From positions 50,778,001 to 50,842,000 of the forward strand of contig OZ360236.1 in NCBI GenBank assembly GCA_977017645.1: a stretch of 64,000 nt of DNA, written 5' to 3'. Shown here piece after piece: positions 5,546-54,870 of this stretch (position 1 is the stretch's first letter; every line of letters begins with the position of its first letter). The notes beneath the pieces are model-generated. The model was not told the origin of the DNA. It made no database searches and saw nothing but the letters and a program-made list of their open reading frames with translations. Position numbers and translations under genes: made by a program. The DNA is from Torpedo marmorata (lineage: Eukaryota).

Positions 5546-5707
5546 CTTAAGCCTTCCTGTTCTTTCTTATTCCTTGAAGAAGGGTTCAGGCCTGAAACTT
5601 TGGTAATATATGTTTACCTCCTATTGGCACTGCGAGACTGTCTGAGTTCCTCCAGCATTTCTGTGTGTTTTTACTACAATCACAGCATCTGCAGACATTT
5701 GTGTTTC
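5546..5707 (+). mobile_element. Penelope-like terminal-repeat fragment with hammerhead motif
   Basis: ttgaagaagggttcaggcctgaaac motif; 14-bp TSD gctaagc(a/g)atgatt at 5532-5545 and 5708-5721. Confidence 0.8.
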
Positions 5708-5779
5708 GCTAAGCGATGATTGCACAGCTTCCAGCCTCCTACCACATAACGACAGAAGGATCCTGTACTTCTTGCAAAA

Positions 5780-6000
5780 GCTGGTGAATTTCTGGAATTC
5801 CCTACGCCAAGGATTGTGGAAGCTAAACCCCAGTGGACATTGAAAGACAAAGGTAGATAATTGTTTGAAATGTTCGGGAATTGAAGGATATGGAGAACTG
5901 ACACTAAAGATGTGATGGGCTGATCATCGTGATCACATTGAATGGTGAGGCAGACGAGGGACTAAGTGGCCTACAACTGCTCCTATTTTCTTATTTCTTT
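5780..6000 (+). mobile_element. Old CR1 3' tail
   Basis: gtgaatttctggaattcccta...gaatggtgaggcagac...gctcctattttctta, similar to other CR1 tails in the window. Confidence 0.6.
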
Positions 6001-6002
6001 AT

Positions 6003-6620
6003 ATTCCCCAGAGGAACTTTGCAGCATCTGACCTAAGCTTCAGTGCCTCTACCATCATGTCCTGCACCTCAGAATATGTTGGTTGAGGACAGTTACTCGC
6101 ACTGCAAGACCAGAAAGTTTCTGGCTGGCCAGAAGTAATTTGTCAACGAACTCAGAACCTTCCAGAAGCAGTTTATGTTTGTCATCGTATGCAGTATGCA
6201 TTCCTAGGAATAGCCAGTAGTTTGTAGACTCCTGCAAAGATCAGAGATCAGTTTCCAGACCTCTTGGCAACTGAACATTCCAGAAGGAGATTGGATGATG
6301 GCCTCATCCCTGCCATAGCCACTTAAGGGCCACATATCGTGGCAGTGGGACTCCCCTATAAACAAAGCGTCTGACAACAAGGGTTCTTTTCACCATCAGC
6401 AAGGAAGGTCTTGGTGCTTGTCTGAAAGTTCTAGGGACAAGGCATTCTGCTGAATGACTTTGAGAGGTTTCTCTGGAATCTTTATGCAGAAGGACGCCAA
6501 TGATTTTAAAATTAAGGAGTTGGTTAATTGAGAGCCAATGCAGTTCAGGGAGTCCTGCATTACAAATGGAATTAAGTCCAGAGGGAACAGATTTTATCCC
6601 AGATATCATCAGCATGACCG
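6003..6620 (-). mobile_element. Old Tx1/L1-clade ORF2 C-terminal remnant
   Basis: Frameshifted minus-strand translation resembles Tx1 C-terminus (QNA..PELS.KHQDL..L.V.R.L; LLLEC..AK.VW; RNLLV..; ALKL....AK..WG). Confidence 0.55.
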
Positions 6621-8208
6621 AACCTAAAGTACGAAAAATGTTTTAAATAGTTTCGCTACAATTTTATTTGAGCAGATATGCATATTCAAAATTTCAAAGC
6701 TTAATTCTGAAGATGAAGATGCTAAAATTAAAGAATATTTAAAAATCTGTCTGTAAGAGAAAGACTTCTTTAAATTGAGCCAAAATCGTTTTTTAAAAAA
6801 TGCTTGTTATAATAGGTACATTGTAATACTGAAGGTTGTTATAATAGTGTTCGACTTTATTCTGTAATTTACTCAAAAACAAAAATAAACTAAAACATGT
6901 GGAGCAGCAAAGTACAACCTCATGTAGAATTTAAGTGTGTGTAATTTGGGCTACAAACATCCATGGCATATTGTGAGTCTTTAGAAAGAAACTGCTACTT
7001 AACTGGAAATGACAGATAATTGTAGATAATTGTGTTCAGTTACATAAATGAATACACTGGAGTGTAAATAGAAAATGTTTCAGTTTTTCTCCCACATTTT
7101 CATTGCATTCAAGGGAAACATTCCTGAATCTATACTGTCAAATCATGCCTGTGAGAGATAACAAAAGGGAGCTGTATCTTATGAAAATAATGTGTACTTA
7201 ACAAAACCTTTGCACTGGTCAAAGTGTCTCAATAAAGCGAAACACACACAAGATAAAACTTGATACACCACTGATATGACAATTTAATTTAGATCAAATA
7301 AATCTCATTTGAGTCTTTGCAATATTTAATAAGGTCAACTGCAAAAAGATTCTTCAAACATTTCTGACTAAAAATAAATAAACACATTTATATTTCACCA
7401 TTCATGTGACATTCCAATCTACTTTGCAGACAATGAGTTATTATTGTAAGAATAGTCACTGGCCTGTGTTGGTGAACATGAAGATCAGGTTCTGCACAGT
7501 AAGGAAGCAACAAGATAAACTGAGAATGTTTCTGTTTTGGCTGAGGTGTGAGTGATGCAGATATTTTCCTTCTCTTTGAGGATTGGGAGTCATTAGAACT
7601 CACTTCCATGAAGGGCATTTTAGTACATGGACATTTTTCAGGCAGAGATAGATACATTCCTGAGAAGTAAGTGAGTAAATGTTTACTGAGGTAGATAGGA
7701 AGGCAGAATTGAGGTTACAATAAGATCAACCATAATATACAGTGATTAAATGGCAGGGCAGGCTTGAGGAGCCAATTGACCTTGTCATGAGTATTGGTGC
7801 AAGCCCTGGAAATACTTTCTTTTGTCTTCTTTGATGCTTTATGTTCTCCTGGTTGAACATTATGTTCTCTTGGTTTTATTGCTGATCGATTGTGTTCATT
7901 GAACCAGATGGAGGGATATGGCCAAGATTTTGAAATTTACAGCAGAAAGACTATCGCTTCCTTTGTTGTCTTGGGGCAGCTCAGAGACCACTGAGCGTCA
8001 TGATTCTGTCTGTGAATGCCAAGGCCGGTCACTTGCCTTTGCTCTGCATAGATTTTGCCTTGGACATTTCACTCTCCCCATCGATGGGCAGAATGCTGAA
8101 TGGCATCAAATCTCACCACAGCCGCCTATGCACTAAAGCACAATGCTCCATATGGATGCTGCTGCCTGCTTTGATTCATTGGTGGAATGACCACTGAACT
8201 AAAAGTTA

Positions 8209-9121: not shown

Positions 9122-9700
9122 TTTTATATCTATGACTGTGTGGCTCGGTATGACAAGAACACCATTTACAAATTTGATGACGATACCACAGTAGTAGGTT
9201 GTATAAAAAGGGGCGATGAGTCAGCATACAGGAGGGAGATTGAAAACTTGGCTAAATGGCGTATTAACAACATCCTCTCACTCAATGTCACCAAAACCAA
9301 GGAGCTGATTGTAGACTTCAGGAAGGGAAAAGTGGAGGTGTACGATCCATGATCATTTAGAGATCAGAGGTGGAGAAGGTGATCAAATTTAAATTTCTGG
9401 CAGTTACTATCTTGGAGGATCTTTCCTGCACCCAACATACTAATGTCTTTGTGAAGAAAGCGCCTCTACTTCCTCAGGTGTTTGCGGAGGTTCGGTATGA
9501 CATCAGAAACCCTGGCAAATTTCTACAGATGTGTGGTGGAAAGTGTGCTGGCCGGCTGCATCACGGTCTGATATGCGGGCACCAATATTTTTGAGTGGAT
9601 AGCCCTGCAAAGGGCAGTGGACACACAGCCCAGTGTATTCCAGGCAAAATTCTCCCTACCATTGAGAAAGTCTAAATGGAACATTGCCATCGGAGAGCAG
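9122..9700 (+). mobile_element. Rex1/Babar LINE RT fragment
   Basis: YDCVA..IYKF(A)[30 protein letters not shown] motifs. Confidence 0.85.
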
Positions 9701-10250
9701 ATTCAGATTTCAGATTTCAGATTTATTGTCAGAGTACATACATGACATCACATACAACCCTGAGATTCTTTTTCCTGCGGGCGCAGCAGAATTACCACTA
9801 ATTGGTAGTGCAATAGTAAACTGTACACAGCGTAAACATGTAAACAATCAAAAGAACTGCCAACAGGTAACGAATGAAACTGAAAATGGAACTGACTGTG
9901 CAATACAGAGAGAGCAAAGAAAAAAAATCAATAAAGTGCACGAGCAAGAGTCCTTAAATGAGTTCTGATTTGACTTTGTCGTTGAGGATTCTGTTCCTAA
10001 ACCTGGTGGTGCGAGTCTTGTGGCACCGATACCTCTTTCCTGATGGCAGCAGCGAGAACAGAGTGTGCGCTTGGTGGTGTGGGTCCTTGATGATTGCTGT
10101 TGATCTCCGACGGCAGTGTTCCCTGTAGATGTACTCAATAGTGGGGAGGGTTTTGCCTGTGATGTCCTGGGCTGTGTCCACTACCTTTTGGAGGGCTTTC
10201 TGCTCAGGGGTATTGGTGTTTCCATACCAGACTGTGATGCAGCCGGTCAG
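9701..10250 (-). mobile_element. Rex1/Babar 3' end with (AATCTGA)n tail
   Basis: IIKDPHH..LFSLLPSGKRYR motif; tgacaataaatctgaaatctg tail; abuts the opposite-strand copy of the same family. Confidence 0.85.
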
Positions 10251-10465
10251 AAGTGGTGGAAAAGTGACTGGAGGGGACTCTGAGGAATAGGATCTACCTG
10301 CAACAGGAAAGGCAAGGACTGATTAGGGATAGTCAGCGTGGTTTTGTGGGTGGGAAGTTGTGTCTCAGAAATTTGATCATGAAAAGGCGATGAAGAGAAT
10401 TGACAAGGTCAGATTGGTGGACATTATCTACACGGACTTCAGCAACGCATTTGACAAGGCTGGTC
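10251..10465 (+). mobile_element. CR1 RT fragment
   Basis: LIRDSQ.GF...VDIIYTDFSNAFDK motif. Confidence 0.7.
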
Positions 10466-10559
10466 CAGATTTTTACAATTTTAGGCAATCACTAACTCTA
10501 TCTGGTTCCACTGTTTCCACCTCTTCTTTACTTACTTCCATTCTCATTTTTCTTTCTAA

Positions 10560-10865
10560 TCTTTTTTTCTGTCCCTTCTCCACACCCTCTCCCCAAGTGG
10601 TCTCTCCCCCTGCCTGTCTCTCCCCCTCTCCCACCTTCATTTGACCAATATCCTTTCACTCTTTGGACCCTTTCCCTCTCCCCCACCCTCCCCCCCCCCC
10701 ACCCCTTTTTATGCTTACGATCTCCCCTTCCCACTTTGGTCTCGTTAAAGGGTCCCAGCACGAAAAGTTGACTGACCATTTCTCTTCATAGATGCTGCCT
10801 GACCTGTTGAGTTCCCCAACTAATGTTTGTTCACACAAGGTTCTAGCATCTGCAGTTCCTGTTCT
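10560..10865 (+). mobile_element. Old Penelope-like terminal repeat
   Basis: Pyrimidine tract, degenerate hammerhead motif (~10741-10772), gatgctgcctgacctgttgagttcc tail. Confidence 0.6.
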
Positions 10866-10983
10866 TCACCAGCATCAGGCCATTCATTTGAAAGGAATAT
10901 CATTATTTTTGCACTTGTTGCTAATCAAATGTATTTTCTATCTTGAGTGTAAAGATAACAATTAGGCTTCTCTTTTTCACTGG

Positions 10984-11145
10984 TCAAAGTTCAAAATTCA
11001 AAGTTTGAATTTATTGACAGAGTACAACATATGACATACAACCCTGAGGTTCTGTTTCCTGCAGGCCAGGCAGAACTTCTACTTATTGGTAGTGCAGAAT
11101 GTACTCAAGAAAAAGATACATATACAAAAGAGAGAAACGTAAACA
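10984..11145 (-). mobile_element. Rex1-type 3' tail fragment
   Basis: Homologous to the 9701-9850 tail. Confidence 0.6.
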
Positions 11146-11219
11146 CTTTCCATTCACCCCATTATCACATCTGATACAAATCATACAGATGGTGTAAACA
11201 TGTCCCTCCACTGTGAGAG

Positions 11220-11560
11220 GGAGGGAAGATTAGAAAAATAAGGGAGAACAGGGGCAGGTAAAGGACAGATGGAAAGAGTGGAACCAGATCAGGATGGGGG
11301 TTACCTAAAATTGAAAAAATCAATGTTCATGCTGTTGGGTTTATGCCTGTCCAGGAGGAATATGATATGTTGTTCCTCAGTTTACATTTAGCCTCACCCT
11401 GGCAATGGATATGTGTGTAGGAATGGTGAGGGAAATTAAACTGGTTGGCAGCTGGGAGTTCCAGCTTGCATCTAAGGACAGAGCGCAGGTGCTTCTCTAT
11501 TTTCTGAGATTCTGAGGCTAGTCGGTGTACATTGGGTGTCAACTGCACATGTGTGAATCA
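11220..11560 (-). mobile_element. Old Penelope-like GIY-YIG fragment
   Basis: LPAANQFN..H..H / KLEE.HIIF-like remnants. Confidence 0.6.
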
Positions 11561-11718
11561 ATTTCACAGTGTTAACATCAACGGGGCATTTCACTGAGGA
11601 TTGACATCACCCTGCTCTGTGTGGTTGCCGCATGGATGTGTTATGCATGTGGCATTTCTCAATCAGAGGCTCTATTAAATGTTTTCACACTGTTCGCTCC
11701 TGATTATACCGAACAATC

Positions 11719-13325
11719 AATTTCAGATTTCAGATTTATTGTCAGAGTACATACATAATATCACATACAACCCTGAAATTCTTTCTCCTGTGGGCCAGGC
11801 AGAATTAACACTTATTGATAGTGCAAAAAAACAACTGTACACAATGTACACATGTAAACAAACAAACAAATGAAAACAACTGACTGTGCAATACAGAGAG
11901 GAGAAATAAAAACAAACAATATAGTGCAAAAGGAAGAGTCCTTAAATGAATCTCTGATGGTGCGAGTCTTGTGGCACCTATACCTCTTTCCTGATGGCAG
12001 CAGCGAGAACAGAGTGTGTACTGGGTGGTGTGGGACTTTGATGATTGCTGCTGCTCTCTGATGGCAGCGTTCTCCATAGATGTTCTCGATGGTGGGAAGG
12101 GGTATGCCTGTGATGTTCTGGGCAGTGTCCACTACCTTTTGCAGGGCTTTACAATCAGGGGCATTGGTGTCCCCATACCAGACCGTGATGCAGCCGGTCA
12201 GCACACTTTCCACTACACATCTGTGGAAATTTGCCAGGGTTTCCGATGTCATACCAAACCTCCATAAACTCCTGAGGAAATAGAGGTGCTGATGTGCTTT
12301 CTTCATGATTCCATTAGTGTGTCGGCTCCAGGGAAGATCCTCCGAGATAGTGACTCCCAAGAACTTAAATTTGCTCACTCTCTCCACCTCTGATCCCCCA
12401 ATGATCACTGGATCGTACACCTCTGGCTTTCCCTTCCTGAAGTCAACAATCAGCTCCTTAGTTTTGGTGACATTGAGTGCAAGGTTGTTTTTGTGCACCA
12501 TTCGGCCAAGTTTCCAATCTCCCTCCTGTATGCTGACTCATCGCCTCTTTTATACAACCCACTACTGTGGTATCGTCAACAAATTTGTAGATGGTGTTAT
12601 TGTCGTACCGAGCCACACAGTCATAGGTATAAAGTGAGTAGAGCAGGGGGCTAAGAATACAGTCCTGTGGTGCTCCGGTATTGATGGAGATCGTGCAGGA
12701 GATGCATAATCTCACTGATTGTGGTCTGTAGGTGAGGAAATCAAGGATCCAGTTACACAGTGGGGTGTTGAGTCCCAGGTCTTGGAGTTTGCTGATCAGT
12801 TTTGAGGGGATGATGATTTTAAATGCCGAACTATAGTCGATAAAGACATCTTTGCCATCCAGGTGTTCCAGGGATTTGTGTAGAGCCAGTGAGCTGGCAT
12901 CCGCTGTAGACCTGTTGCGACGATAGGTGAACTGGAATGGATCCATGTCGCCTCTCAGACAGGAGCTGATATGTTTCATCACCAGCCTTTCAAAACACTT
13001 CATCACTGTTGATGTGAATGCCACTGGTCGATAGTCATTTAGGCAGGTTACCACACTCTTCATGAATGACGCTTGTTTGAAACAGGTGGGTAGCACACCC
13101 TGCAGGAGTGAGACGTTGAAGATATCTGTGAATCCGTAAGTTGGTCAGCACAGAGTTTTAATGCTCGGCCGGGTACTCCGTCCGGACCGGATGCTTTCCT
13201 CGGATTCACTCTCCTGAAGGCAGCCTGCAAGTCATCCTTGGATACGGACAGGAGAGGATCATCAGGGGACATCGGGGTGTGCCTTGGTGGTTCCTTCTTG
13301 TTTTTGCGGTCGAATCTGGGTTAGA
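11719..13325 (-). mobile_element. Rex1/Babar LINE, 5'-truncated RT pseudogene
   Basis: ORFs 13060-13272, 12458-13096 and 11812-12501: [51 protein letters not shown]; microsatellite tail. Confidence 0.92.
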
Positions 13326-13791: not shown

Positions 13792-14407
13792 TAAATCACG
13801 AAAATCTGTAGACACCGTGGTTGAAGTAAAAAACACAAATGCTGGAGAAGCTCAGCAGGTCAAACAGTGTCTTTTATGTAGCAAAGGTAGAAATACATAA
13901 CCGACGTTTCGGGCTTGAGCCCTTCATCAAAGTATGAGAAAATGCCGGCAGGCGTCCGAACAAAAGAGTGAGGGGGGGAAGGGGGGGGTGGCAAAGGCAG
14001 GAGATGATAGGTGAAGAAAGGAGGGAGGGGACAGCAGCAAAGAGGGGGAGGAGACATGGCTGGGTGGGTGGGGAAAAAAACTGGAAGGACAGGTGAGGGG
14101 GGAGGGGAAGGAAAAGACAAGCAGGTTTAGTGGAATGCAGAAAGGTCAATGTTAATGCCATCTGGCTCGAGAGTGCCCAGACGGAAAATGAGATGTTGTT
14201 CCTCCAATTTGCGGGTAGACTGGGTGGGATAGTACATAAGGCCATGGACAGACATGTGAGTGTGGGAGTGTGACTCGGAATTGAAATGATTGGCTACTGG
14301 GAGGTCGCTGTTGTTGCGGACGGAGAGGAGGTGCTCAGTGAAGCGATCTCCCAATCTACGACCGGTCTCTCCGATGTAGAGAATACCACAAAGGGAGCAC
14401 CGGATGC
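13792..14407 (-). mobile_element. Penelope-like 3' fragment (GIY-YIG endonuclease plus terminal repeat)
   Basis: RCSLCGILYIGETGRRLGDRFTEH...RKLEEQHLIFRLGTLEPDGIN; TSD ggctca(c/t)gaggggg at 13778-13791 and 14408-14421. Confidence 0.92.
13896..13936 (-). ncRNA. Minimal type-I hammerhead ribozyme motif (Penelope family 2)
   Basis: catact-TTGATGA-aGGGCtcaaGCCC-GAAAC-GTC-ggttatg: core boxes, stem II and helix I pairing. Confidence 0.7.
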
Positions 14408-14680: not shown

Positions 14681-15227
14681 TCTTTCTCCAGACGTTAACA
14701 GCTCTTTTCATGGGTTGTGTTGTGTTGCTCAGTCATTAACTGGATGAATTTGCTGGGATACCATGGAAGCCTACAGTGCTTATTTACCTTGCTTTAGCAG
14801 TGGAAATGCCAGTCAGCTACTTAAATTGACGCTACATGTGTAATCAGATCCTGACTTTGATAAGCAAAGGTAAACTGAGACCTTCCCTCTGAGCAAATTC
14901 CATCTCTGTCATTAGCCTCCTCAATTGAAAGCATTTGTTCTGCTCATATACATCAGAAACACAAATTCCAATTGCTAGTTTTGAGTTGCAAATTAATTTG
15001 AATTAAACTATTACAAAAAGAGATCATGGAAAGAATCTTCTGAGATGGAAGAATAGGTTTTCAGTTAAATTTGACACAAAATTACAAACTAACTGGAAAA
15101 TGGTTTTTGAATGAACGATCTAAATTGCAAAGAGGCAGTAAACTGCAGAAACACATCATATTTTGCAGCAAACATGAATTTTAACTTTTTTTTCCCAGTT
15201 GCAGTCAAAAAAAACCTTTGAAAAATT

Positions 15228-15407
15228 CGAGAATGCTGGAGGAACTCAGCAAGTCTTGCAGCATTCATAGGAAGTAAAAATATATAACCAATGCTTTGGG
15301 CCTGAGCCCTTCTTCAAGATATGGACACTGCGACACCAGCTGAGTTCCTCCAGCATTCTTGTATTTTTACCACAATCACAGCGTCTGCTGACTTTCGTGT
15401 TTCACTT
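15228..15407. mobile_element. Palindromic mini-Penelope (two terminal-repeat ends in inverted orientation)
   Basis: gaatgctggaggaactcagc ... gctgagttcctccagcattc inverted arms with a hammerhead remnant between. Confidence 0.7.
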
Positions 15408-16040: not shown

Positions 16041-17862
16041 TTAAAGAACAGCTGGTTCACGTGGATCTTTCCTCATGGTTAGCACTGCCAGTCCTCTCAG
16101 GTCACCCTGGAATTAAACTTTAATGTCCTAGTCACTACTATGGTAAGAGAGAAACACGATAGGCTGCAGACGCTGTGATTGTAGTAAAAACACCGAAATG
16201 CTGGAGGAACTCAGCCGGTCTTTTCAGCATCTATAGGAGACAAAGATATATTGCCGACGTTTCGGGCCTGAGCCCTTCTTCAAGGAAAAATCAGAAAGGG
16301 CAGAAGCAGGATATGTCAGAAAGTCTCAGAATTCAAACAATGGGGGAGGAATCCAGACCAACAAAAGGTGTTAATTGGATGTGATAAGGGAGGAGGTAGA
16401 ATTTATTATATCTTTGCGAAAGGAGACAGGGAATGGAGAGATGATGGGGGGGGGGGGAGAAGCAGGGGGTGGGGTTTAACGAAAGCCAGAGAAGTTGATA
16501 TTAATGCCACCCGGTCGGAGGGTGCCCAGTTGGAAGATGAGGTGTTGTTCCTCCAATTTACGGGTGGTCTCAGTCTGGCAGTACATGAGGCCATGGACAG
16601 ACATGTCTGCAAGGGAATGGGATGGAGAATTGAAATGGGTGGCCACTGGGAGATCCACGCTATTGCGGTGGACAGAGCCGAGGTGCTCAACAAAGCGATC
16701 TCCCAGTCTGAGTCCAGTCTCTCCGATGTAGAGGAGACCACAGCGGGAGCACCGGATGCAGTAGACCTCGTTCTGGTCTTCAACCTGCTGTGGACCTTTA
16801 TATTTCCAACTGCCGCTGTGACATCAACCGTATCGACTTCACTACTCCCCTCACTCATTCCAATCTCACCCCCTCGGAACGCCTGGCCCTCCACTCTCTC
16901 CGCACCAATCCGAACCTCACCATCAAACCTGCAAACAAGGGTGGCACTGTTGTGGTCTGGCGCACTATCTGGCCGAAGCCAGACGACAACTCTCAGACAC
17001 CTCCTCTTATTTACCCCTCCAACAGGACCCCACCAAAACTCAAACCACTGTATCGCGCACCATCTCTGAACTCATCACTTCTGGTCACCTCCCTGGCACG
17101 GCCTCCAACCTGATTATTTCCCAACGCCCACCGCCCGTTTCTACCTCCTACCCAAGATCCACAAACCCAGTTTTCCCAGCAGACCCATCGTGTCCACGTG
17201 CTCCTGCCCCACCAAATTGGTCTCTGCTTACCTCAACTCTGTTTTGTCCCCCCTGGTTCAGTCCCACCTCACCTACATCTGGGACACTTCACATGCCCTC
17301 CATCACTTCAACAACTTTCCAGTTCCCTGAACTCGATTGCCTCATATTTACCATGGATATCCAATCCCTATACTACTCCATTCCCCATACTGAAGGCCTC
17401 AAAGCCCTTCGTTTCTTTCTGGAAAATAGAACCTACCAGTCCCCCTCCACCACCACCATCCTCCGGCTGGCAGAACTTGTCCTCACCCTCAATAATTTCT
17501 CCTTTGACTCATCGCACTTTCTCCAGGTTAAAGGGGTAGTCATGGGTACCTGCATGGGCCCCAGCTATGCCTGCCTTTTTGTTGGCTACGTGGAGCAATC
17601 CATGCTACAAGCCTACACAGGCAAGGCCCCTCAACCTTTCCTCCGCTACATCGATGATTACTTTGGTGCTGCCTCATGTACCCATGCTGAGCTCGTTGAC
17701 TTCATCCACTTTGCTGCCAACTTCCACCCCGACCTCAAATTCACTTGGTCCATCTCTAGCATCTCTAACACTCTCCCTTTCCTCAATCTCTCTGTCTCCA
17801 TCTCAGGAGACAAACTCTCGACAGACATCTTCTATAAACCCAACAACTCCCACAGATACCTC

Positions 17863-17944
17863 TTTTTTGAATATTTTATTTAATTTTTTTGATACATGTA
17901 ATAATCCCCAATCCCCTCTCCCCCTTCCCCCCAAACCCACCCCC
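17863..17944 (-). mobile_element. Extremely truncated L1-type 3' tail inside the Penelope RT
   Basis: G-tract, AATAAA and polyA on minus strand; 16-bp TSD ctcccacagatacctc at 17847-17862 and 17945-17960. Confidence 0.8.
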
Positions 17945-18917
17945 CTCCCACAGATACCTCGACTATACTTCTTCCCACCCTGTAAGGATTCCATTCCATT
18001 CCCTCAATTCCTCCGTCCCCGTCGCATCTGCACCCAGGATGAGATCTTCCATGCCAGATCATCAGAGATGTCCTCCTTCTTCAAACAATGTGGCTTTCCC
18101 TCTACCACCATCAATTCGGCACTCACCCGCATATCCTCCATTACCCGCACATCTGCCCTAGCCCCCTCCGCCCCCACGCGCAACAAGGATAGGATTCCTC
18201 TTGTCCTCACCTACCATCCCACCAGCCTCCGCATCCAACATATCCTCCTCCACCATTTCCGCCACCTACTACGTGATCTCACCACTAGACACATATTCCC
18301 CTCTCCGCCTTCCACAGGGACTGCTCCCTCCGTGACTCCCTTGTCCACTTCTCCCTCCCCACTAATTGACCTACCCCTGTGACCGCAGTAGATTCTCCAC
18401 TTGTGCCCACACCTCCTCCCTCACCACCATTCGGGGCCCCAAACAGTCCTTCCAAGTGAAGCAACATTTCACTTGTGAATCTGCAGGGGTCATCTACTGC
18501 ACCTGGTGCTCCATCGGAGAGACTGGACGCAGACTGGGAGATCGCTTTGTTGAGCACCTTGGCTCTGTCCACCGCAATAGCGTGGATCTCCCAGTGGTCA
18601 CCCATTTCAATTCTCCATCCCATTCCCTTGCCGACATGTCTGTCCATGGTCTCATGTACTGCCAGACTGAGACCACCCGTAAATTGGAGGAACAACACCT
18701 CATCTTCCGACTGGGCACCCTCCGACCGGATGACATTAATATTGACTTCTCTGGCTTTCGTTAAAACCGCTCCCCCCCCACCCCCTTGCTTCCCCCATCG
18801 TCTCTCCATTCCCTGTCTCCTTTCGCACAGACCTGATAAATTCTACCTACTCTCTTCCAATTAAAACCTTTTGTTGGTCTGGATTCCTCCCCCATTGTTT
18901 GAATTCTGAGACTTTCT

Positions 18918-18990
18918 GATATATCCTGCTTCTGCCCTTTCTGATTTTCCCTTGAAGAAGGGCTCAGGCCTGAAACGTCGGCAATATATC
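18918..18990 (+). ncRNA. Minimal hammerhead ribozyme motif (Penelope family 1)
   Basis: gatatat...cc-TTGAAGA-aGGGCtcagGCCT-GAAAC-GTC-ggcaatatatc; equivalent copies at 16254-16285 (-) and 21396-21427 (+). Confidence 0.7.
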
Positions 18991-19237
18991 TTTGTCTACT
19001 ATAGATGCTGAAAAGACTAGCTGAGTTCCTCCAGCATTTCGGTGTTTTCACTACTATGGTAACCTGGGAAAAACATAATTTGGACATTAAGTTTTAATTC
19101 ATTTAACAATTAAATAAAACACTTCTGTTTAATTGTTAAGGGAATATTGGAGAGAGATTTCTGACAGTTGAGAATCCTTCATCCGTGTTACAGAGAGTCT
19201 CAACTACATCAGAGAGATTGGGTGCAGACTGGGAGAT

Positions 19238-20511
19238 TTATTGTCATGACCAAGTCATGAAATTCGGTGTTTTGCGGCAGCATCATAGTGCAAGCATTCA
19301 TATTATAACCATCTTACGACATTACTATAAAAATATATATATAATAGTGCACGAAAAGTAAGGCAGTGTCTTTGGTTCATTGATTATTCAGGAATCTGAT
19401 GGCAGCGCGGAAGAAGCTGTCCTTGTGCCGTTGAGTGCTCGTCTTTAGGCTCCTGTACCTTTTTCCTAATGGTAGCAGAGGGAAGAGGGCATGGCCTGGG
19501 TGGTGGGGGTCTTTGAGGATAGAGGCTGCTTTTTTAAGACATCGCCTCGTGTAGATGTCCTCGATGGAGTGAAGTCTGGTGCCTGTGATGTCACAGGCCA
19601 AGTTAACAACCCTCTGGAGTTTATTCTTCAAGATTCAAGATTCAAGATTCAATTTATTGTCATAGTAATAAGACAGTGTCATATTCCATGAAATTTCTTT
19701 TTGCCTGCTGCAAGGCAGACAGATTCGCCACCGGCAGAAATTGCCTAAGCGCCTCTAACATTCCTTACAGTCAGAGAAAGAGAAGCAAAAGAGAGTCCCC
19801 CCAGAGTCACCGAGTGTCCGTAGATTCGCTTCCAGCACTTCCGCAGCCACACAGAGTCCAGTCCAAACGATCGGCATCCCGAGCTCCAGATCCGAACCTC
19901 CAACACGGTCAGGTCGCCCTCGGCACCCCCTCGCATCCCGGTTCCGATACCTGGTACTCCTCCAGCCAGTTCAAGCCAGCCTCCAGCAGTCCGCAGCCCG
20001 GCGTGAGTCCCCCGACAGCAGTCTCCAGCAGCCCACAGCCTCCGCGGGTTCCTCGCCTCGAGTCGTCAGCAGCCCGCCGCATGCACTGGTCCTTCAGCGT
20101 CAGAGCCCCTCACCGGTCCGCCGCTGTGGTTACCGTCCCATGGGTCTTCTCCTCCGCTTCTCCTTCTCAGACGGGGGGTGATCTTCCCATCCTCTGGTGC
20201 CCTGCTCCAGTCTCCCGCTTCCCCGGTGGCTGCTGCCGGTTAAAAGGCGCTGCCATCTTGGGCGCATACCCCGCAGTCGCGGGATCTCAAATAAAAACCA
20301 CCGTCGGCTCCTTTACCGGGCCGTTCAAAGCCCGTGCGGAACCGACGGCAGTTGACTGGGCGGCTGGACCCCGCGGGAGTGCTGTGTCTCCGCTCCCTTG
20401 TTCCCCGCGGGTCTGCACCAGCGGCAGCGCTGCTATTACAGCGGCTCCGGCAGCACTGCCATTACTCACGCCATTACTCACGTCCTGAGAGTTGGCGCCT
20501 CCATACCAGGC
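19238..20511 (-). mobile_element. Rex1 3' fragment (19238-19628 and 20482-20511) inserted in a Penelope remnant
   Basis: KLQRVVN.ACDITG...LPLGKRYR; sequence resumes as gtcctgagagttggcg after the nested element. Confidence 0.85.
19629..20481 (-). mobile_element. CpG-rich ~850-bp non-autonomous retroelement, young copy
   Basis: Highly similar to 56109-56949 and 63339-64000; tgacaataaa + (ATCTTGA)n tail; interrupts Rex1. Confidence 0.85.
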
Positions 20512-21498
20512 GTGGATCTCCCAGTGGGGACCCATTTCACTTTCCCATCCTATTCCCTTGCTGACATGTCTGTCCATGGTCTTATGCACTGCTAAACTGA
20601 GACCACCCGCAAATTGGAGGAACAACACCTCATCTTCCGTCTGGGCACCCTCCAACCAGATGGCATTAACATTGACTTCTTCAGTTTCCATTAAACCACC
20701 CCCACCCCTTCTTCTTCCCCTGTTGCCTTTCCCCCAGCTCTGTCTGTTTCTCTCTCGCAACCCAGAAAAGGAATCTCAGTTTTGTATGTGATGTCATGTC
20801 TGTACTCTGACAATAAATCTGAATCTGAATCTGACTCTTCTCTTTTCCCTCCATCTCTTTTCACGGAGCCAAAATCAATTCTCACCTCTCCTCTTATCAT
20901 ATCCAATTAACACCTTTTGTTGGTCTGGATTCCTCCCTGGCCAGTCCTCAGTCTTTATTGTTACACCTTCCTGTTCTTTGCTTATTCCTTATAGAAGGGC
21001 TCAGGCCCGAAAAGTCGGTAATATATTGGGGTAACGGGGTATTGAGAGAACAAATGTAACAATGTAACAATGTACATTGATGAGAATGTGTCGATATGAC
21101 TGACATTATGAGTGTAAAAAGACTTGAACTCTTTTCCTGTTTGTAATTTTAAAAAAAATTCTAGACAAGGTATGTCTAATGACACATTGGAGGATCAACA
21201 CCTCATCTTCCGACTGGGCAGCCTCCAACCGGATGGCATTAATATTGACTTCTCTGGCTATCGTTAAAACCCCTACCCCACCCCCTTGCTTCCCCCGTTG
21301 TCTCTCCATTCCCTCTCTCCTTTCGCATAGACATGATAAATTCTACCTAGTCCCTTATCACATCCAATTAACATCTTTTGTTGGTCTGAATTTTTCCTTG
21401 AAGAAGGGCTCAGGCCCGAAACGTCGGCAATATATCTTTGTCTCCTATAGATGCTGAATAGACCGGCTGAGTTCCTCCAGCATTTCGGTGTTTTTACT
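20509..21498 (+). mobile_element. Penelope GIY-YIG/terminal-repeat remnants in partial tandem (20509-21030; 21186-21498)
   Basis: DLPV.THF..DMSVHGLM..KLEEQHLIF; hammerhead motifs near 20988 and 21396; small Rex1-type tail insert ~20760-20833. Confidence 0.8.
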
Positions 21499-21785: not shown

Positions 21786-21852
21786 GGTTTGCACAGAATT
21801 ATTGAAGTCAGAAAAAAATCCTTCATCTCTGATGCAACTGCTCCTTAAAGAG

Positions 21853-24800
21853 TAAAAACACAAAATGCTGGAGAAACTCAGCAGGTCAAACAGTGTCCTT
21901 CATGTAGCAAAGGTAGAAATACATAACCGACGTTACAGGCTTGAGCCCTTCATCAAAGTATGAGAAAATGCCAGCAGGCGTCCAAACAAAAGAGTGAGGG
22001 GGGGAAGGGGGGTGGCAAAGGCAGGAGATGATAGGTGGAGAAAGGAGGGAGGGGACAGCAGAAATGAGGGGGAGGAGGGATGGCTGGGTGGGTGGAAGAA
22101 CAGGAAGGACAGGGAAGGGGGGAAGGGAAAGAAAAGGTGAGCAGGTTTAGTGGAAAGCAGAAAAATCAATGTCAATGCCATCTGGCTGGAAAGTGCCCAG
22201 ACGCAAAATAAGATGTTGTTCCTCCAATTTGCAGGTGGTCTGGGTGGGATAGTACATAAGGCCATGGACAGACATGTGAGTGTGGGAGTGTGACTCGGAA
22301 TTGAAATGGTTGGCTACTGGGAGGTCGCTGTTGTTGTGGACGGAGAGGAGGTGCTCAGCGAAGCGATCTCCCAATCTACGACCGGTCTTTCCGATGTAGA
22401 GAATGCCACAAAGGGAGCACCGGATGCAGTAAATAAGTTCTCTGGATGTACAAGTGAAGTGTAGTTTCACTTGGAAGGCCTGTTTGGGGCCCCGGACCAT
22501 GGTGAGGGAGGAGGTGTGGGCACAGGTGTTGCACCTCCTGCGGGCACAGGGGAAGGTACTGGGGGGGAGATTGGTGGGGAGGGATGAGTGTACGAGGGAG
22601 TCTCTGAGGGAACGGTCCGTACGGAAGGCAGAGAGGGGAGGAGAAGGGAAGAGGTGTCTGGTAGTGGGATCCTGTAGTGCCGGAAATTCCGGCGGATAAT
22701 GTGTTGGATGCGGATGCTGGTGGGGTGGGAGGTGAGGATGAGGGGGATTCTATGTTTGTTGCTTCTGGGGGCAGAGGGGGACAGGGCAGATGAGTGGGAA
22801 ATGGAGGAGATGTGGGTGAGGGCTGAGTTGATAGTGGTGGAGGGGAAGCCACGTTTGTGGAAGAAGGCAGACATTTCGGAAGATCTGGACTGGAAGACCT
22901 CATCTTGCGAACAAATGCGGCGGAGATGGAGAAATTGAGAGAAGGGGATGGAATCCTTGCAGGGGACAGGGTGTGAGGATGTGTAGTCAAGGTAGTTGTG
23001 GGAGTTAGAGGGTTTGTAGTATATTTCGTTGGAAAGCTTGTATCCCGAGATGGAGACAGAGAGATCCAGGAAGGGGAGACTGTTATCGGAGATGGACCAG
23101 GTGAGTTTGAGATCAGGGTGGAAGTTGGCCGCGAAGTGGATGAAGTTGACAAGCTCATCGCGGGTGCATGAGGCAGCCCTGATGTAGTCGTCGATATACC
23201 GGAGGAAGAGTTGAGGGTTCTTCCCTGTGTAGGCTTGCAGCATGGATTGCTCCACAAAGCCTACAAACAGGCAGGCATAGCTGGGACCCATGCGGGTACC
23301 CATGGCTACTCCTTTGATTTGGAGGAAGTGGGATGAGTTAAAGGAGAAGTTATTTATTGTGAGGACAAGTTCTGCCAGGCGGAGGAGGGTGGTGGTAGAG
23401 GGTGCCTGGTTGGGTCTTTGGTCCAGGAAGAAGCTAAGTGCTTTGAGACCTTCTGTGTGGGAGATAGAGATATAAAGGGATTGGATGTCCATCGTGAAGA
23501 TGAGGCGGTCCGGTTCGGGGAATCTGAAGTCATTGAGGAGATGGAGGGCATGTGAGGTGTCACGGATGTAGGTGGGGAGGGATTGGACCAGGGGAGAAAA
23601 GATAGAGTCAAAGTAAGATGAAACTTGTTCGGTGGGGCAGGAGCAGGCAGAAACAATGGGTCTGCCCGGATGGTTGGGTTGTGTATCTTGGGTAGAAGGT
23701 AGAAACAGGCAGTTCTGGGGTGCGAGAGAATGAGGTTGGTGGCCGTGGAGGGGAGGTGACCAGAGGTGATGAGGTTGGAGATGGTGTTGGAGACAGTGGC
23801 TTGATGTGCAGTGGTGGGGTCCTGTGGGAGGGGTCGATAGGAGGAGGTGTCTGAGAGCTGTCGACTGGCCTCGGCAAGGTAGAGGTCAGTGCGCCAGACC
23901 ACCACCGCACCACCCTTGTCTGCGGGTTTGATGGTGAGGTTGGGATTGTTGCGGAGAGAGTGGAGGGCAGAGCATTCTGAGGAGGTTTACTCGGAATTGA
24001 AATGGTTGTTGCGGATGGAGATGAGGTGCTCAGTGAAGCGATCTCCCAATCTAGACCGATCTCTCCGATGTAGAGAATGCCACAAAGGGAGCACCGGATG
24101 CAGTAAATAAATTCTCTGGATGTACAAGTGAAGTGTTGCTTCACTTGAAAGGCCTGTTTGGGGCCCTGGACTGTGGTGAGGGAGGACGTGTGGGCGCAAG
24201 TGTTGCACCTCCTGCGGGCACAGGGGAAGGTGCCGGGGGTGCGATGGGTGGGGATGGATGTTTACTCAGAATTGAAATGGTTGGCTACTGGGAGATTGCT
24301 GTTCTCAAGCTCAAAACGTCGGTTTTGAAGAGCTCAAGCCCGAAACGTCGGTTATGTAAGGACTCAAGCCCGAAACGTCAGTTATTTATCTTTACCTTTG
24401 CTCTTTGCCAGCTTGGGACCACCCTGCTTCACTCCAGGCCTAGAACCGTGGAAGGGCGCTGGAGAAATTGTTGATGGCGGCGGTGCGAGTAACTCTCAGC
24501 GGCTCCTCTGGGCTTGTGCATGTTTTATGTTAAGTTGAGAGCCGTGCACAGTCAGCGACCGGTAGGATCGGATCAATGAAGCGTCGAGGAACACCTTGAA
24601 CACAACAATAGCATCGTGTGAGGTCCCAGGGCACTGTTTGACGGACTGGACTGATACTGCAGTAGTAGGCCTTCACTCCTCGGGGTCGAGTGGCGATGGC
24701 AGCCGAGGTGAGGATGCGATGCGAAGGCAGCTGAGGACGGTTCGGAGGATGGTGGCAGTGGAGCTCGGAGGACGGGGTTGAGACCTCTTCCACGCAAGTA

Positions 24801-46599: not shown

Positions 46600-46848
46600 T
46601 GAGAAACACAAAAGCTGCACATGCTGGAGTCTTGAGCAGACGAAGAATTGATGGAGTAACTCAGCAGATCAGTCAGTATCCATGGTTCGAAATGGTTAGT
46701 CAACATTTCAAGTTAAAATTCTTTATTAAGAACAGACTCCCACATTTTTCCAGTCTCAGTAAAGGTCTTTGGCTTCAAACATCGACCATTGTTTTTCTTC
46801 CACTGATGCTGCTTGACTTGCTGAGTTCCTCCTCCAGCAGAATGTGTT
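46600..46848. mobile_element. Old palindromic mini-Penelope
   Basis: Inverted arms (aactcagca / tgctgagtt) with two degenerate hammerhead remnants. Confidence 0.55.
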
Positions 46849-50200: not shown

Positions 50201-51957
50201 GCTTATTTAGCCTTGTCCAGACCTCTCAGCACAGTTTGTGTAGGTCTCTTTGTGGCAGTTGGCCAATGAACTCACATCACTTAACCTTCAGGGACTGCAT
50301 GTTTTGATTTTAATAATTTAAATCTTCAAATACATTCACGATAAATTCTTGAAAAATGGGTTGCAAGTTGCTGAATTTGTTGGCATTGATTTTGAAAATG
50401 TTAATTTTTAACCTTTCCTCTTTTGGATGCTGCACTTTCCATGCTTGTGATGCAATCTGTGCTGCATGAGGACAACACATGCACTTTACAGAGGGCAAAT
50501 TCCCATTGCCGGGGAAATCGCTGTGTGAAGTTGATGATGATCATCTTAAAGAGTAGTATTTATATGATTGCCACTTCCCACCATAAATTACAGAATGAAA
50601 GAGGGCAGGATGTGGGGAGAGAAGTGGGGGTGCTTTGTGTGCAATTGTTATTGGTAGGCACAAAAGTCTTAGAAGAAGATCCCAATGATTGTTTGCCTAT
50701 TTAGAAACAAAGCAAAGGCTTTAAAAAGGTTTACTTCAACCATCGGTAATTTGCTTACATTAGATTTCTACAGAGATGGATTTGACTGTTTTGGACACTT
50801 CCTGCCTGAATAACAATGAAAAGAGGAATTCCTAATAAGTGCAATCTTGTCTGAAGCTACTTTCTCACTTGACATCAGAAATCCCGGAAAATACAACATT
50901 AAAGACAGCGCTGGACATTATGTGTAACAGCATTTTAATGCCACTTCCTGTGCCTCAGTCTGCAAGAGGTACCGTAACAATTGAGTTCCAGATAATTTGC
51001 AAGCTGTCTGTTTGATCTGGAGATCATATCAAAGTTAGCAGATGCAGGTAAGCCAGGAAAGGTCTGCACTGTTCCTGCCTTAAACAGGTTGTATTATACT
51101 CCAGTTTGTTCTGCCATCTTCAATTGCTTGAGAAAGATGGGCTGAGAAAAATATATCATTAAGATTGGAGATTAAAAAACAATCACTGCGTATTCTTACT
51201 GCAATGCAGCGTGTTTGTGTACACCTGCCCTTTGTGTGAAAAGATTGGTAATTTGAGTGCAAAGCACATGCAGAACAACCATGGTGATCTGCCAACACAT
51301 CTATTAATCATACTAAGTATGTGTATAAGACAGGCTGAATTTGTAAGAAGTATCATATTCTCCAGATTTTATCAAAGGGTTTAATATACTTCACATGACA
51401 ATGATTTCCTGTTTATGAAATCCTCAAATGCTGACAAAACAATGCAAGATCTTCAATATCTTCAATAATCTTTCAAGCATTTTTAGCTTTATTTACCTTC
51501 TTGTAAATCCATTTACTTTCTGATTATCATATTTTCTCAGATTTATCTCACTGTTGCTTGTCATTTTAAACCACAAATTGCATCTCCTCGTTAGAATGGG
51601 GATGGAAAGGAGAAAGGTACTAATGCCAATAGGCATTCAAACCGTGGATGTACTAAACAACTGACCACACAACTGAACATGAGAAAAGACAAAGGGAATA
51701 AAAACAACGTTCAACTGGTCTCCATATCTGCCATTGAACTCAAAGAAGTCTTATAGAATTATTTATTGCTATTCCTGGCAGTCTACATTCTGTGAAGGAG
51801 TAACACACGTGACAGATTGTGACATGTGATTTTTTTTCTCTTCTTTACCAGACCCCTAAGATTGAGGATGACTTGGCTCCACTCCAGTTTTGTGGGTTCT
51901 GAAGTGGCTAATGAGACCAATGGAGGAACTGAAGACTCTTCCATCACTCATGGAGGT

Positions 51958-52150
51958 TAAACAAGAAGTTTGCAGAAAAATGGAGAGCTGGAATAATTCA
52001 CTTAAGAGCTGGAGGAACTCAGCAGGGCATGCAGCATCCATGCAAAGTAATAAGCAGTCGACATTTTGAGCCTGGCCCTGAGCCCTTCAACAGGGCCCAT
52101 CCAGGAGCAATCCCATTCAGGTCACTGTTGAGTTCTTCCAGCACATTTAT
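51958..52150. mobile_element. Old palindromic mini-Penelope
   Basis: gctggaggaactcagc ... ttgagttcttccagca with a tgagcccttca remnant. Confidence 0.5.
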
Positions 52151-53144
52151 ATATTGTTCCATTGCTCACGGAGCTGGTGGTAGCCGATGATCAGGTGGAT
52201 GCGTAGTTTGTGAAGCTACTGTATTGCCAAAGTACTTCCTGAGCTGCCAAGATAATCTACAGTCAAAACACCCAAGGACAACTTCATGAAACCAAAGTAC
52301 AAATGTAAACCCATCAAAGGCACCTCTTCACTTGCTACATGGTGATTGAGAGACAGGGGCATGTTGTGCCATTCATCAGCTCCCGCTTGCACCACTGGCT
52401 GCTGAAGAGGATTGAGAATGGAACTGAACACAGCTCAAATATCAATGCACCTCTTCACTTCTGATCATACGATGGAAGGGAGATCTCTTACCTCACATAT
52501 AGGGAAAGGTGAGTTGGATGAGATAATGCAAGACTAACATACATAAACATTTCCAGAGAGAATAAAAAAACGCATTTGGCTCTGTTTCATGTTGTCGTGC
52601 CATTAAGATGTATTTTAAAATTATTTTCCAAATGTGTGGGAAAAACATATGGAATTTGAATGGCCTTTGCTTATTTTCCAGTTAAACATGTTGAAATAAA
52701 TGGTGTAATTGTTTGGCTTACACCAGATATAACAGCTGACAAAATAACTTTGATAAATATGGCCAGAGAGCCAGAAAAATAACAAAATGTGAATGGGGAG
52801 ATGAGGTAATCACCCATTAAACCAGAGGTTTTTTTTATTTAATACAACACTATGGATATCCTGTGGCTGATCACCAGATGTACAGTCAGAGGACTTGGAC
52901 CCAGACTTCAGAAAACAATTTCCTCATAATAGCAGCTGGAATGACAATACTTTTCTGGACCTTATGATCACGCATCTTTCAGGATCTGTGTTTGAAAAAG
53001 CACATGGAAGAATTTTTGATATTCCTTTTTTAAGTTGTTTCGTTTCCCCTGTGGACACTTTGCAATCTGTTTGGCAGCTCTTATATTTGCTTCTTTGCAC
53101 AAAAGTATGCCTAGTTTCATGATATCCAGGAAAAGAAAGAGCTC

Positions 53145-53365
53145 GTTAAATAAAATCTGCAAATGCTGACACTTTGAATCAAAAACAGAAAGCATTGAAA
53201 ATGTCCAGGATATCAGACAGCATCTGTGAAGTGTACAGATGGTTTAGTTTTTTGGGATGATCTCTTTATTGAAATAATGAATGGTGCACAAGACACTGAA
53301 GCATCTGTTTCTTTCTCTGCAGATGTGGCCTGGACTTTCAGATGTTTCCTGCATTTACTGTTATC
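53145..53365. mobile_element. Old palindromic Penelope-tail remnant
   Basis: tctgcaaatgctg..cagcatctgtg arm and tgcagatgtggcctgg..cctgcattt arm. Confidence 0.45.
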
Positions 53366-53629
53366 TTTTTTCATAAATTTCCTTATTAAATGACATTGAT
53401 TCATCAGTTCTAGTGCAACATAATCAACTAATATATCAAATGGTCACATTCAGTCATCTTACTCTCTGATGTGATTCAAATAATTCATTTATCTAATGTA
53501 CATTATACAAACAAGCAAGTAAATCACTTCACATAGCTTTTCTTTTCAAATGCAAATACATTGTAAAACACTGATAATGACGTTTTATTCATTTGTTCAT
53601 AGGATGAATACATCATTAGCAATGCCAAC

Positions 53630-54012
53630 ATTTATGGGAGAGTCACAAACAAGGGGACAAAGCCACAGAATCTTTTAGGTTTGAGGGATGTGGAGATCTC
53701 TTCTCTCAGAGAATAGTAAATCTGGAATTCTCTGAACCTGAGAGTGTTGGAGGCCAAATCAATAGATATAGTTAAGGTGGAGATTGATCAATATTTTAAA
53801 GATTGGGAATTGAGATTTTGGGGAACTAGCACAGAAGATGATTTGAAATGAGCATAAATCAGCCATTTTCATATGGAATGGCAGGACACTCATCTTATTT
53901 TTGTTTGTCTTCTTTAATTTTTGTCCATCCCTTATCACATCTGCCATGATCATATTGAATGGTGAGGCAGGGATAAGGGGCCCGGTGGCCGAGCCCTGCA
54001 TCTATTTTCTTA
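53630..54012 (+). mobile_element. Old CR1 3' tail(s)
   Basis: ttctctcagagaatagtaaatctggaattc...atgatcatattgaatggtga. Confidence 0.6.
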
Positions 54013-54870
54013 GTAAAAATACAATGCTGGAGAAACTCAGCAAGTCAAACAGTGTACTTTATGTAGCAAAGATAAAGATACATAACCAACTTTTCAGGCT
54101 TGAGCCCTTCATCAAGGATTGAACAAAATGTAGGCAGGTGCCTGAACAAAATAGTGGGGGGGGGAGAGGCAGGGGTAGGAGCACAGTCCCACAGGCAGGA
54201 GATAATGGGTGGATAAGGGAGGGAGGGCACACCAGCAAACAGGGGAAGGGGGGAATAGCCCTGTGAATGGAGAGGGAAGAGGTTGGAGAGTTGGAGGAAA
54301 GAAGACAGAGGGATTGGGAAAGAAGGAGAATGGGGAGTAGGCTAGCGGAAACCAGAGAAATCAATGTCAATGCCATCCAGTTGGAGAGTGCCCAGACAGA
54401 AAATTAAGTGTTGCTCCTCCAATTCACGGGTGGCTTTAGTTTGACAGTACATGAGGCCATCGACAGATATGTCAGCACGGGAGTGGGGCGCAGAATTGAA
54501 ATGGTTGGCCACTGGGAGATCCCCGTCATCGATGTGGACAGAGCGAAGGTGCTCAGCGAAGCAATCTCCCAGTCTGCGTCCAGTATCTCCGATGTAGATA
54601 AGGTAAAGGTAAAGGTTCCATTATTGTCACGTAATACTACATTTAGAATGTAACATACATGAAATTCTTTAATTTTTGTCTGCCGTAAGGCAGACAGAGA
54701 GTCGTTACTTTGTCCAGCGCCCCTCACAGAAACCTACAGCACCTAGTGTTCCTAGGCGGTCTCTCCTCCAAGTACCGACCAGTTCTGTGCCTGCTTAGCT
54801 TCCGAGATCAGACAATCCCAGTCGTATTCAAGCTATTGGTGCTGTTCCAGTCTCTCCGATGTAGAGAAAC
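54013..54870 (-). mobile_element. Penelope 3' fragment interrupted by the 5S SINE
   Basis: GIY-YIG remnants; hammerhead-like motif at 54081-54117. Confidence 0.85.
54599..54845 (-). mobile_element. 5S rRNA-derived SINE, copy 2
   Basis: Close reverse-complement homolog of 2558-2812; 20-bp TSD tccagt(a/c)tctccgatgtaga at 54579-54598 and 54846-54865. Confidence 0.9.

What the first reader, a model, noticed from the sequence alone, without database searches (positions are those of the whole stretch)
5572..54117. Dispersed minimal hammerhead ribozyme motifs with a U3 core variant in Penelope repeats
Seen: about 10 copies of TTGA(A/T)GA-aGGGC-tca(g/a)-GCC(C/T)-GAAAC-GTC (5572, 13896, 15292, 16254, 18951, 20988, 21396, 21922, 54081 and others), some degenerate. 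Two families keep potential helix-I pairing using different sequences (cc/gg plus gatatat/atatatc versus catact/ggttatg). Established: Penelope-like elements carry minimal type-I hammerheads with a palindromic stem III thought to act as dimers. Notable: core position 3 reads U rather than C in both families.
Basis: partly seen in the sequence, partly recalled or inferred. Interest (0 to 1): 0.7.

Follow-up and report, generated by a model that had tools for sequence, protein, structure and literature searches.

The report
Wobble-core hammerhead in Penelope retrotransposons
A very abundant jumping gene in this animal genome carries a small self-cutting-RNA motif of a known kind whose key core base pair has switched among three pairable forms over the element's history, so the motif is likely still under selection but slowed, and the inserted copies likely derive from uncut RNA.

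Summary
Observation confirmed. All nine named motifs are real (11 window matches, none in shuffles). They lie in the terminal repeat of RT + GIY-YIG Penelope-like elements. U3 is the master state, not decay: 88,166 exact U3 copies against 655 C3 in the genome. Families defined without using the core carry three states of the 3-8 tertiary pair: C-G, U·G (all young families) and U-A (an old family). Position 3 changed at least twice, and the eight strict core positions are invariant in 8 of 8 families. This points to selection on the hammerhead fold in source elements; dispersed copies decay neutrally. Inserted copies do not end at the predicted cut (0 of 62) but pile up 0-7 nt upstream of position 3 (10 of 62; replicate 5 of 6), which fits uncut RNA starting there as the template. 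Minimal hammerheads in these elements are known, U3-A8 is published, and U3·G8 appears once in a 2014 supplement. This scan noted the U3 variant before on other DNA of this genome. Cleavage is untested. Verdict: variant of a known kind.

The parts
13896..13936 (-). Family B minimal hammerhead (U3, U7, G8; helix I CAUACU/GG-U-UAUG) in a 3' pseudo-LTR; core 13903-13930, predicted cut between 13903 and 13902
   Evidence: element fragment 13791-14407 from self-BLAST
21851..23986 (-). 5'-truncated family B Penelope-like element: broken RT and GIY-YIG frames followed by the pseudo-LTR with hammerhead core 21929-21956 (A13 changed)
   Evidence: RVT_1 E 1.4e-5 at 22470-23885, GIY-YIG E 6.6e-4 at 22150-22749, both under Pfam cut-off
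16148..19057 (.). Family A element with inverted 5' part: minus-strand 3'-end copy (core 16256-16283) joined to a plus-strand RT-EN-pLTR (core 18952-18979); U3, A7, G8; helix I UUUUCC/GG-C-AAUA
   Evidence: (RVT_1 E 1.1e-6 at 16822-17880)
21183..21498 (+). Family A 3' fragment with hammerhead core 21398-21425
20510..21026 (+). Family C 3' fragment with degenerate core 20989-21016
5542..5710 (+). Family C pseudo-LTR stub, core 5574-5601 (cleavage triplet mutated); helix I UAUUCC/GG-U-AAUA
15218..15407 (.). Head-to-head family C stub; core 15290-15317 on the minus strand, degenerate
54012..54601 (-). Older family B (B0) 3' fragment, core 54088-54115
24304..24416 (+). 2.8 tandem 30-nt pieces of the family B core and 3' helix strand, without an intact 5' core
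10730..10783 (+).
46600..46848 (.). Head-to-head pair of old-family copies, both U3...A8 (position 3 at 46729 minus and 46756 plus)
51955..52105 (-). Old-family copy with canonical C3...G8 (position 3 at 52093), otherwise degenerate

Best explanation
The motif is the minimal type-I hammerhead in the terminal repeat of an abundant Penelope-like retrotransposon lineage, and in all young families its 3-8 core pair is a fixed U·G wobble that likely makes it a slow, conditional ribozyme rather than a dead one. Shown: host element, fixed U3, three family-linked states of the 3-8 pair, core conservation between families, neutral decay of dispersed copies, and copy 5' ends clustered just upstream of position 3 rather than at the cut. 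Inferred: the element's RNA starts about 5 nt upstream of position 3, so the hammerhead sits at the very 5' end of the transcript; the element's reverse transcriptase copies uncut RNA to that end; a monomer folds into an inactive rod and would cleave after GUC/GUU only as a dimer through the ACGU palindrome or with help from the element's protein; such cleavage would remove a ~33-nt 5' piece or trim read-through transcripts, a regulatory step for which a weaker core is tolerated or favoured.
For: U3 88,166 vs C3 655 exact matches; position 3 is not a CpG site. RT, linker Zn-finger and GIY-YIG next to the motif; full-length pLTR-ORF copies L082-L084 with the first in-frame ATG about 150 nt after the cut. 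Families clustered on downstream DNA only: young A/B/C U·G, O3 C-G, O1 U-A, O2 U·G. In 30 loci picked blind at positions 3/4/7/8: 15 U-A, 12 U·G, 1 C-G, 2 other; in another 30: 25 C-G, 3 U·G, 2 C×A; each state travels with its own downstream sequence. Tree with positions 3-9 masked: young U·G clade 100/100, O1+O2 92/89, C3 copies between them, so at least two changes at position 3; the coding-region tree also separates C3 from young U3 copies, 92/94. Strict core invariant 8 of 8 columns vs 38 of 142 flank columns across 8 family majorities, Fisher p 5e-5; young families alone 11 of 11 vs 68 of 142, p 5e-4; N7 and H17, the free positions, do vary. Both-sided changes in helix I (2.2-1.2: C-G vs U-A) and helix II (10.4-11.4); 98.2% of 168 cells paired. 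Junctions: 0 of 62 at the cut, 10 of 62 at -35..-27 (8 events); replicate 5 of 6 (4 of 5 events). The Anolis element uses unprocessed RNA in vitro and its hammerhead needs the protein (PMC11167929).
Against: No cleavage or expression data. The U-A state rests on one compensatory event, and related sequences inflate the pair statistics (one search says so; its 24 rows were picked as the least diverged of each family). The whole 28-nt block is conserved (25 of 28 columns in young families), so catalysis cannot be told from a protein-binding or promoter role. C3×A8 copies exist (15 of 100 listed rows by hand count, 7 explained by CpG decay at C7). O1 and part of O3 also carry C4, a second departure from the consensus, and family A has a U·U mismatch in helix I, which fits relaxed selection. 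Only 1 of 15 U-A loci showed endonuclease-coding DNA upstream, and 0 of 12 old U·G loci did. Predicted minimum-energy folds of monomers and dimers are not the active hammerhead. Flank alignment of old families is poor because copies are truncated, which inflates the 8-family test.
Confidence: 0.58

Rival explanations
1. U3 inactivates the ribozyme. The block is kept because it overlaps the internal promoter or a site bound by the element's protein, and the 3-8 changes are drift.
For: Copy 5' ends lie just upstream of position 3 and an initiator-like hexamer (motif recalled) precedes it in 5 of 8 family majorities; Drosophila Penelope has an internal promoter in its repeat (PMC2377424); helix II is as conserved as the core; hammerhead mutants do not impair insertion in vitro; Naiad elements amplify without hammerheads; no footprint of cleavage.
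Against: A DNA promoter does not predict both-sided changes in helices I and II, variation confined to N7 and H17 plus 3/4/8, or G8A fixed only on a U3 background.
Confidence: 0.27
2. The U3·G8 hammerhead is fully functional and cuts the element's RNA out of longer transcripts, defining the transposition template as proposed for PLEs in 2014.
For: Core and helix conservation; the most amplified families carry it; model in PMC4209133.
Against: No pile-up of ends at the cut: 262 genome-wide hits, and of 30 inspected only 10 had unrelated flank, 11 were inversions, 5 small indels or substitutions, 4 tandem duplications; full-length copy L082 begins 33 nt upstream of the cut with the hammerhead intact.
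Confidence: 0.1
3. U3 is post-insertion decay or a chance resemblance to a hammerhead.
For: Dispersed copies do mutate in the core at the flank rate (5 of 410 vs 12 of 697 and 2 of 410 sites, 41 copies); Rfam gives no hammerhead hit.
Against: 135:1 excess of U3 over C3; not a CpG site; 60 of 70 randomly sampled young copies are U·G; full consensus geometry matches published PLE motifs.
Confidence: 0.02

Closest known systems
Minimal hammerheads (min-HHR) in pLTRs of metazoan Penelope-like elements (Cervera and De la Pena 2014, PMC4209133; first two of four parts of the main text and two of three parts of the supplement read)
   Same: Type I, no helix III, palindromic 15.1-16.1, extra nucleotide after A9, G10.1-C11.1, short helix I, location in the pLTR, thousands of dispersed truncated copies. 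Fig. S3 lists a PLE-linked Saccoglossus kowalevskii motif with U3 and G8, and Schistosoma families with U3-A8.
   Different: Here U3·G8 is the state of the dominant young families (88,166 exact copies), helix II is only 4 bp, helix I is extended by a bulged second stem, and C-G, U·G and U-A occur as linked states in related families of one genome. No cartilaginous fish is among the species lines I read in Fig. S3.
Poseidon element of Anolis carolinensis, PAc (Frangieh et al. 2024, PMC11167929; first two of four parts read)
   Same: pLTR hammerhead, tail with two 3' end points, no RNA or insertion ends at the cut site.
   Different: PAc has canonical C3-G8 and its ORF starts inside the hammerhead; here the ORF starts downstream and the protein has a linker Zn-finger.
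Neptune-clade EN+ Penelope-like elements (bioRxiv 10.1101/2021.04.23.441226; passages read)
   Same: DKG motif, RT, CX4CXXC linker, C-terminal GIY-YIG, inverted 5'-truncated copies, optional tail.
   Different: Clade not tested by a tree with reference proteins; Nematis shares the linker.
Natural core variants of hammerheads (Perreault et al. 2011, PMC3088659; passages read)
   Same: C3-G8 to U3-A8 covariation known in nature and stated to be active in vitro.
   Different: The passages seen do not report a U3·G8 wobble; a U3 haloarchaeal variant with an insertion is mentioned in PMC7151607 (passages).

Membership tests
EN+ Penelope-like element | Single ORF with RT and C-terminal GIY-YIG endonuclease | tested here: met
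   RVT_1 and GIY-YIG hits in order, below Pfam cut-off; 820-aa open stretch with RT motifs in L089
EN+ Penelope-like element | Pseudo-LTRs from partial tandems, inverted truncated copies, optional tail | tested here: met
   L082-L084 pLTR-ORF copies; inverted 16148-19057; two 3' end points
Neptune clade | Zn-finger in the RT-EN linker and placement in a tree with reference PLEs | tested here: inconclusive
   CX4CXXC present; no reference tree built
Minimal type-I hammerhead | Core G5 A6 A9, G12 A13 A14, A15.1-U16.1, H17 | tested here: met
   Invariant in 8 of 8 family majorities; 17 is C or U
Minimal type-I hammerhead | C3 with a Watson-Crick 3-8 pair | tested here: not met
   Young families are U3·G8; met in older families O3 (C-G) and O1 (U-A)
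Minimal type-I hammerhead | Helices I and II with compensatory changes | tested here: met
   3 of 7 named pairs change on both sides, 98.2% of cells paired in 24 chosen copies; few independent events
Minimal type-I hammerhead | Palindromic 15.1-16.1 allowing a dimeric helix III | tested here: met
   ACGU in 8 of 8 family majorities; the active dimer is not the predicted minimum-energy fold
Minimal type-I hammerhead | Site-specific self-cleavage after H17 | not testable with these tools
   No raw RNA reads offered; genomic ends do not mark the site
Non-LTR retrozyme | Tandem non-coding units, each with a complete hammerhead | tested here: not met
   Copies are dispersed ends of coding elements; the only tandem in the window (24304-24385) lacks the 5' core
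Rfam hammerhead families | Covariance-model score | tested here: not met
   No hammerhead family at E<=10

The most novel reading that the evidence does not exclude
This lineage records a ribozyme active-site pair evolving through a wobble intermediate (C-G to U·G to U-A) in one genome, and its most successful families were selected for a deliberately slowed hammerhead placed at the transcript's 5' end, where it acts as a timer: uncut RNA is translated and copied, and protein- or dimer-triggered cleavage removes the cap-bearing first ~33 nt.
Probability: 0.2. Interest if true: 0.72.

Novelty: new variant of a known kind. Interest (0 to 1): 0.42.

Why it matters
Why Penelope-like elements keep hammerheads is an open question: the motif is near universal in them, weak in vitro and dispensable for insertion in a test tube. 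Here related families with C-G, U·G and U-A cores on an almost identical scaffold form a natural allelic series, and the cluster of copy ends just upstream of the core predicts where the RNA starts and that the template is uncut. Both can be tested with short transcripts and 5'-end mapping. If the U·G form does not cleave at all, this is a clear case of a ribozyme fold kept for a non-catalytic job.

Tried and rejected
Rfam scan: no hammerhead model hit. PDB sequence search with the RT frame: 0 matches. RNA data: no RNA holder listed on record and no raw reads; contigs of four coded runs from four studies cover the motif, list no variant at position 3 among the rows shown (28 rows not shown) and show C7 and U17 variants, but cannot show ends, strand or expression. 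Cut-site footprint: tested and not found; the total for that anchor was not measured, so 262 is not a rate. Distal gatatat helix: rejected. Thermodynamic folding does not give the active fold for monomer or dimer, as expected for minimal hammerheads, so it was not used as support. A larger random replicate for the junction map could not be fetched; 30 loci already held were used instead. A downstream promoter element at +28..+32 from the inferred start was looked for by eye and not seen. Papers not held, so unseen: Lunse et al. 2017 (PMC5785218; most likely place for further U3 variants of PLE hammerheads), Przybilski and Hammann 2007 (PMC1986816), Nelson and Uhlenbeck 2008 (PMC2151028). Searches for U3·G8 data or a shark/ray report found nothing relevant; passages of PMC11014351, PMC8370743, PMC6155905, PMC6765202 and bioRxiv 10.64898/2026.07.22.740005 (first part and passages; its supplements are closed) added no measurement. 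That C3U slows cleavage is recalled, not read.
Full report
Observation. All nine named coordinates lie within 7 nt of a core, four cores are exact, and all nine read T at position 3. Rfam has no hammerhead hit at E<=10. The window lies in a 6.2-Gb animal assembly; the exact U3 pattern occurs 88,166 times and the same pattern with C3 655 times. Position 3 is followed by T, so this is not CpG decay.

Host element. Self-comparison shows that each motif sits in a shared 3' end. Upstream frames hit RVT_1 (E 1.4e-5, 1.1e-6) and GIY-YIG (E 6.6e-4), below Pfam cut-offs (41 frames scanned). A genomic copy gives an 820-residue open stretch with DKG and RT motifs, followed by a CX4CXXC linker, which points to the Neptune clade (passages; not tested with a reference tree). 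Three of 12 extended loci carry the repeat at the 5' end as well, followed by the start of the ORF. Inverted 5'-truncated partners and two alternative 3' ends match published Penelope-like anatomy.

Anatomy of the motif. Reading 5' to 3': helix I strand, U3 U4 G5 A6 N7 G8 A9, one extra A, a 4-bp helix II with a tetraloop, G12 A13 A14, the palindrome ACGU, C17 or U17, then the helix I 3' strand. Predicted folds keep helix II but pair the core into an inactive rod or a local hairpin; dimers do not fold into the active form either.

Families and the 3-8 pair. I sampled 1.28 Mb at fixed steps plus the window, and loci picked by patterns. Of 299 copies with full context, 252 were kept (47 dropped for lacking a close neighbour) and clustered on DNA downstream of the hammerhead only; two small clusters (6 copies) were left out. 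Young families A, B and C are U·G (60 of 70 random copies). Patterns with N at positions 3, 4, 7 and 8 found 2,328 and 2,066 old copies. Among 30 fetched loci of the first: 15 U-A, 12 U·G, 1 C-G, 2 other; of the second: 25 C-G, 3 U·G, 2 C×A; each state goes with its own downstream sequence. By hand count of the 100 listed rows: 43 U-A, 40 U·G, 9 C-G, 3 C×A, 5 other, 15 of 100 are C×A, 7 of them at a C7 CpG. O1 mostly has U7, so its A8 is not CpG decay; O1 and part of O3 appear to carry C4. A tree of 66 copies (up to six least-diverged per cluster, positions 3-9 masked) gives the young U·G clade 100/100 and O1+O2 92/89, with C3 copies on both sides of a 99/98 split between them: at least two changes at position 3 and one at position 8; the bootstrap had not fully settled and the root is unknown. 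A tree of 36 endonuclease-coding pieces also separates C3 from young U3 copies (92/94) but holds no O1 or O2; only 1 of 15 U-A loci and 0 of 12 old U·G loci had such DNA within 800 nt. The window itself holds all three states.

Selection. Across eight family majorities the eight strict core positions are invariant, against 38 of 142 flank columns (p 5e-5); among the five young ones 11 of 11 against 68 of 142 (p 5e-4). N7 and H17 vary. Columns are not independent, old flanks align poorly, and helix II is nearly as conserved as the core. On 24 chosen copies, 98.2% of 168 cells pair, 3 of 7 pairs change on both sides, and the 3-8 column reads U·G 14, C-G 6, U-A 4; relatedness inflates these controls. 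Within 41 young B copies the core mutates like the flanks (5/410 vs 2/410 and 12/697), so selection acts on source elements only.

Where copies end. If cleavage defined the template, copies should start at the cut. A pattern for junctions exactly there found 262 genome-wide hits; of 30 inspected, 10 had unrelated flank. Among 62 family-B copies none ended at the cut (nearest -7, -5, +5), 31 ran past -190, and 10 ended at -35..-27, that is 0-7 nt upstream of position 3 (8 of 29 events, p 3e-5, window chosen after looking). In 30 other loci, which can only show ends upstream of -28, 5 of 6 ends (4 of 5 events) fell in the same window. Full-length copy L082 begins at -33. Reverse transcriptase meets the 3' strand of helix I first, so a structural stall would lie on the other side; a template end near -33 is the simpler reading (inference). 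An initiator-like hexamer (consensus recalled) sits there in 5 of 8 family majorities, weak evidence in pyrimidine-rich DNA. Drosophila Penelope has an internal promoter in its repeat, and the Anolis element copies unprocessed RNA while its hammerhead cleaves only with protein.

Mechanism. [quoted passage not shown] Rivals: dead ribozyme kept for a promoter or binding role (0.27); fully active template-defining ribozyme (0.10); decay or chance (0.02).

What is known. Minimal hammerheads in Penelope-like repeats, their low activity and the U3-A8 variant are in PMC4209133; its Fig. S3 prints one PLE-linked U3...G8 motif from Saccoglossus. U3-A8 is also in PMC3088659. I could not read Lunse et al. 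2017 or the mutagenesis papers, which may already cover U3·G8; six searches found no measurement. Earlier notes of this scan on other DNA of the same genome report the U3 wobble core and the stop in front of the motif; a word search found no note on the three-state series. Verdict: a new variant of a known kind, useful as a natural test series; interest 0.42.

Noticed in passing
window 2553-2802 (+), 54600-54846 (-), 21657-21779: 5S rRNA-derived repeat (Rfam RF00001 39.6 bits, just above cut-off) with a shared ~130-nt tail, 95% identical between two copies: likely a 5S-derived SINE.
   Followed up: no
window 34958-37270 (-), 41908-44853 (-), 37794-41687 (+): Several LINE copies with long open frames (770 and 981 aa; APE endonuclease + RT, zf-RVT), about 70% identical to each other.
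   Followed up: no
window 9123-12633, 59454-61055: LINE fragments with RT followed by a PF09004 (ALKBH8_N) match.
   Followed up: no
G000:C1:208855595-208857644 (L231-L235) and C11:71430838-71430955: Short tandem arrays (27-30-nt units) built from the DNA that starts right after the predicted cut site; the window's 24304-24385 array is of a similar kind.
   Followed up: partly
about 45-65 nt downstream of the cut in all families: A second conserved block (GCTGAG...TCCAGCA) shared by all eight families just upstream of the two 3' end points; candidate binding site for the element's protein.
   Followed up: no
L252-L310 old families: C4 in place of U4 appears as a master state in O1 and in part of O3 and O2, inferred from CG/TG/CA decay products.
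   Followed up: partly
L084:4094 and 4117 in coded runs X2 and X8: In other samples the related repeat reads U17 in about 80% of depth and, in X8, C7 in 44%, i.e. change at the two tolerant core positions.
   Followed up: no
L011/L012, L023, L031, L036, L181, L185; window 15218-15407 and 46600-46848: Head-to-head stubs whose seam lies at or just upstream of the hammerhead core, in young and old families alike.
   Followed up: partly
L081:1851-9501: A 4.5-kb-period direct duplication, 99% identical, containing part of a Penelope-like element.
   Followed up: no
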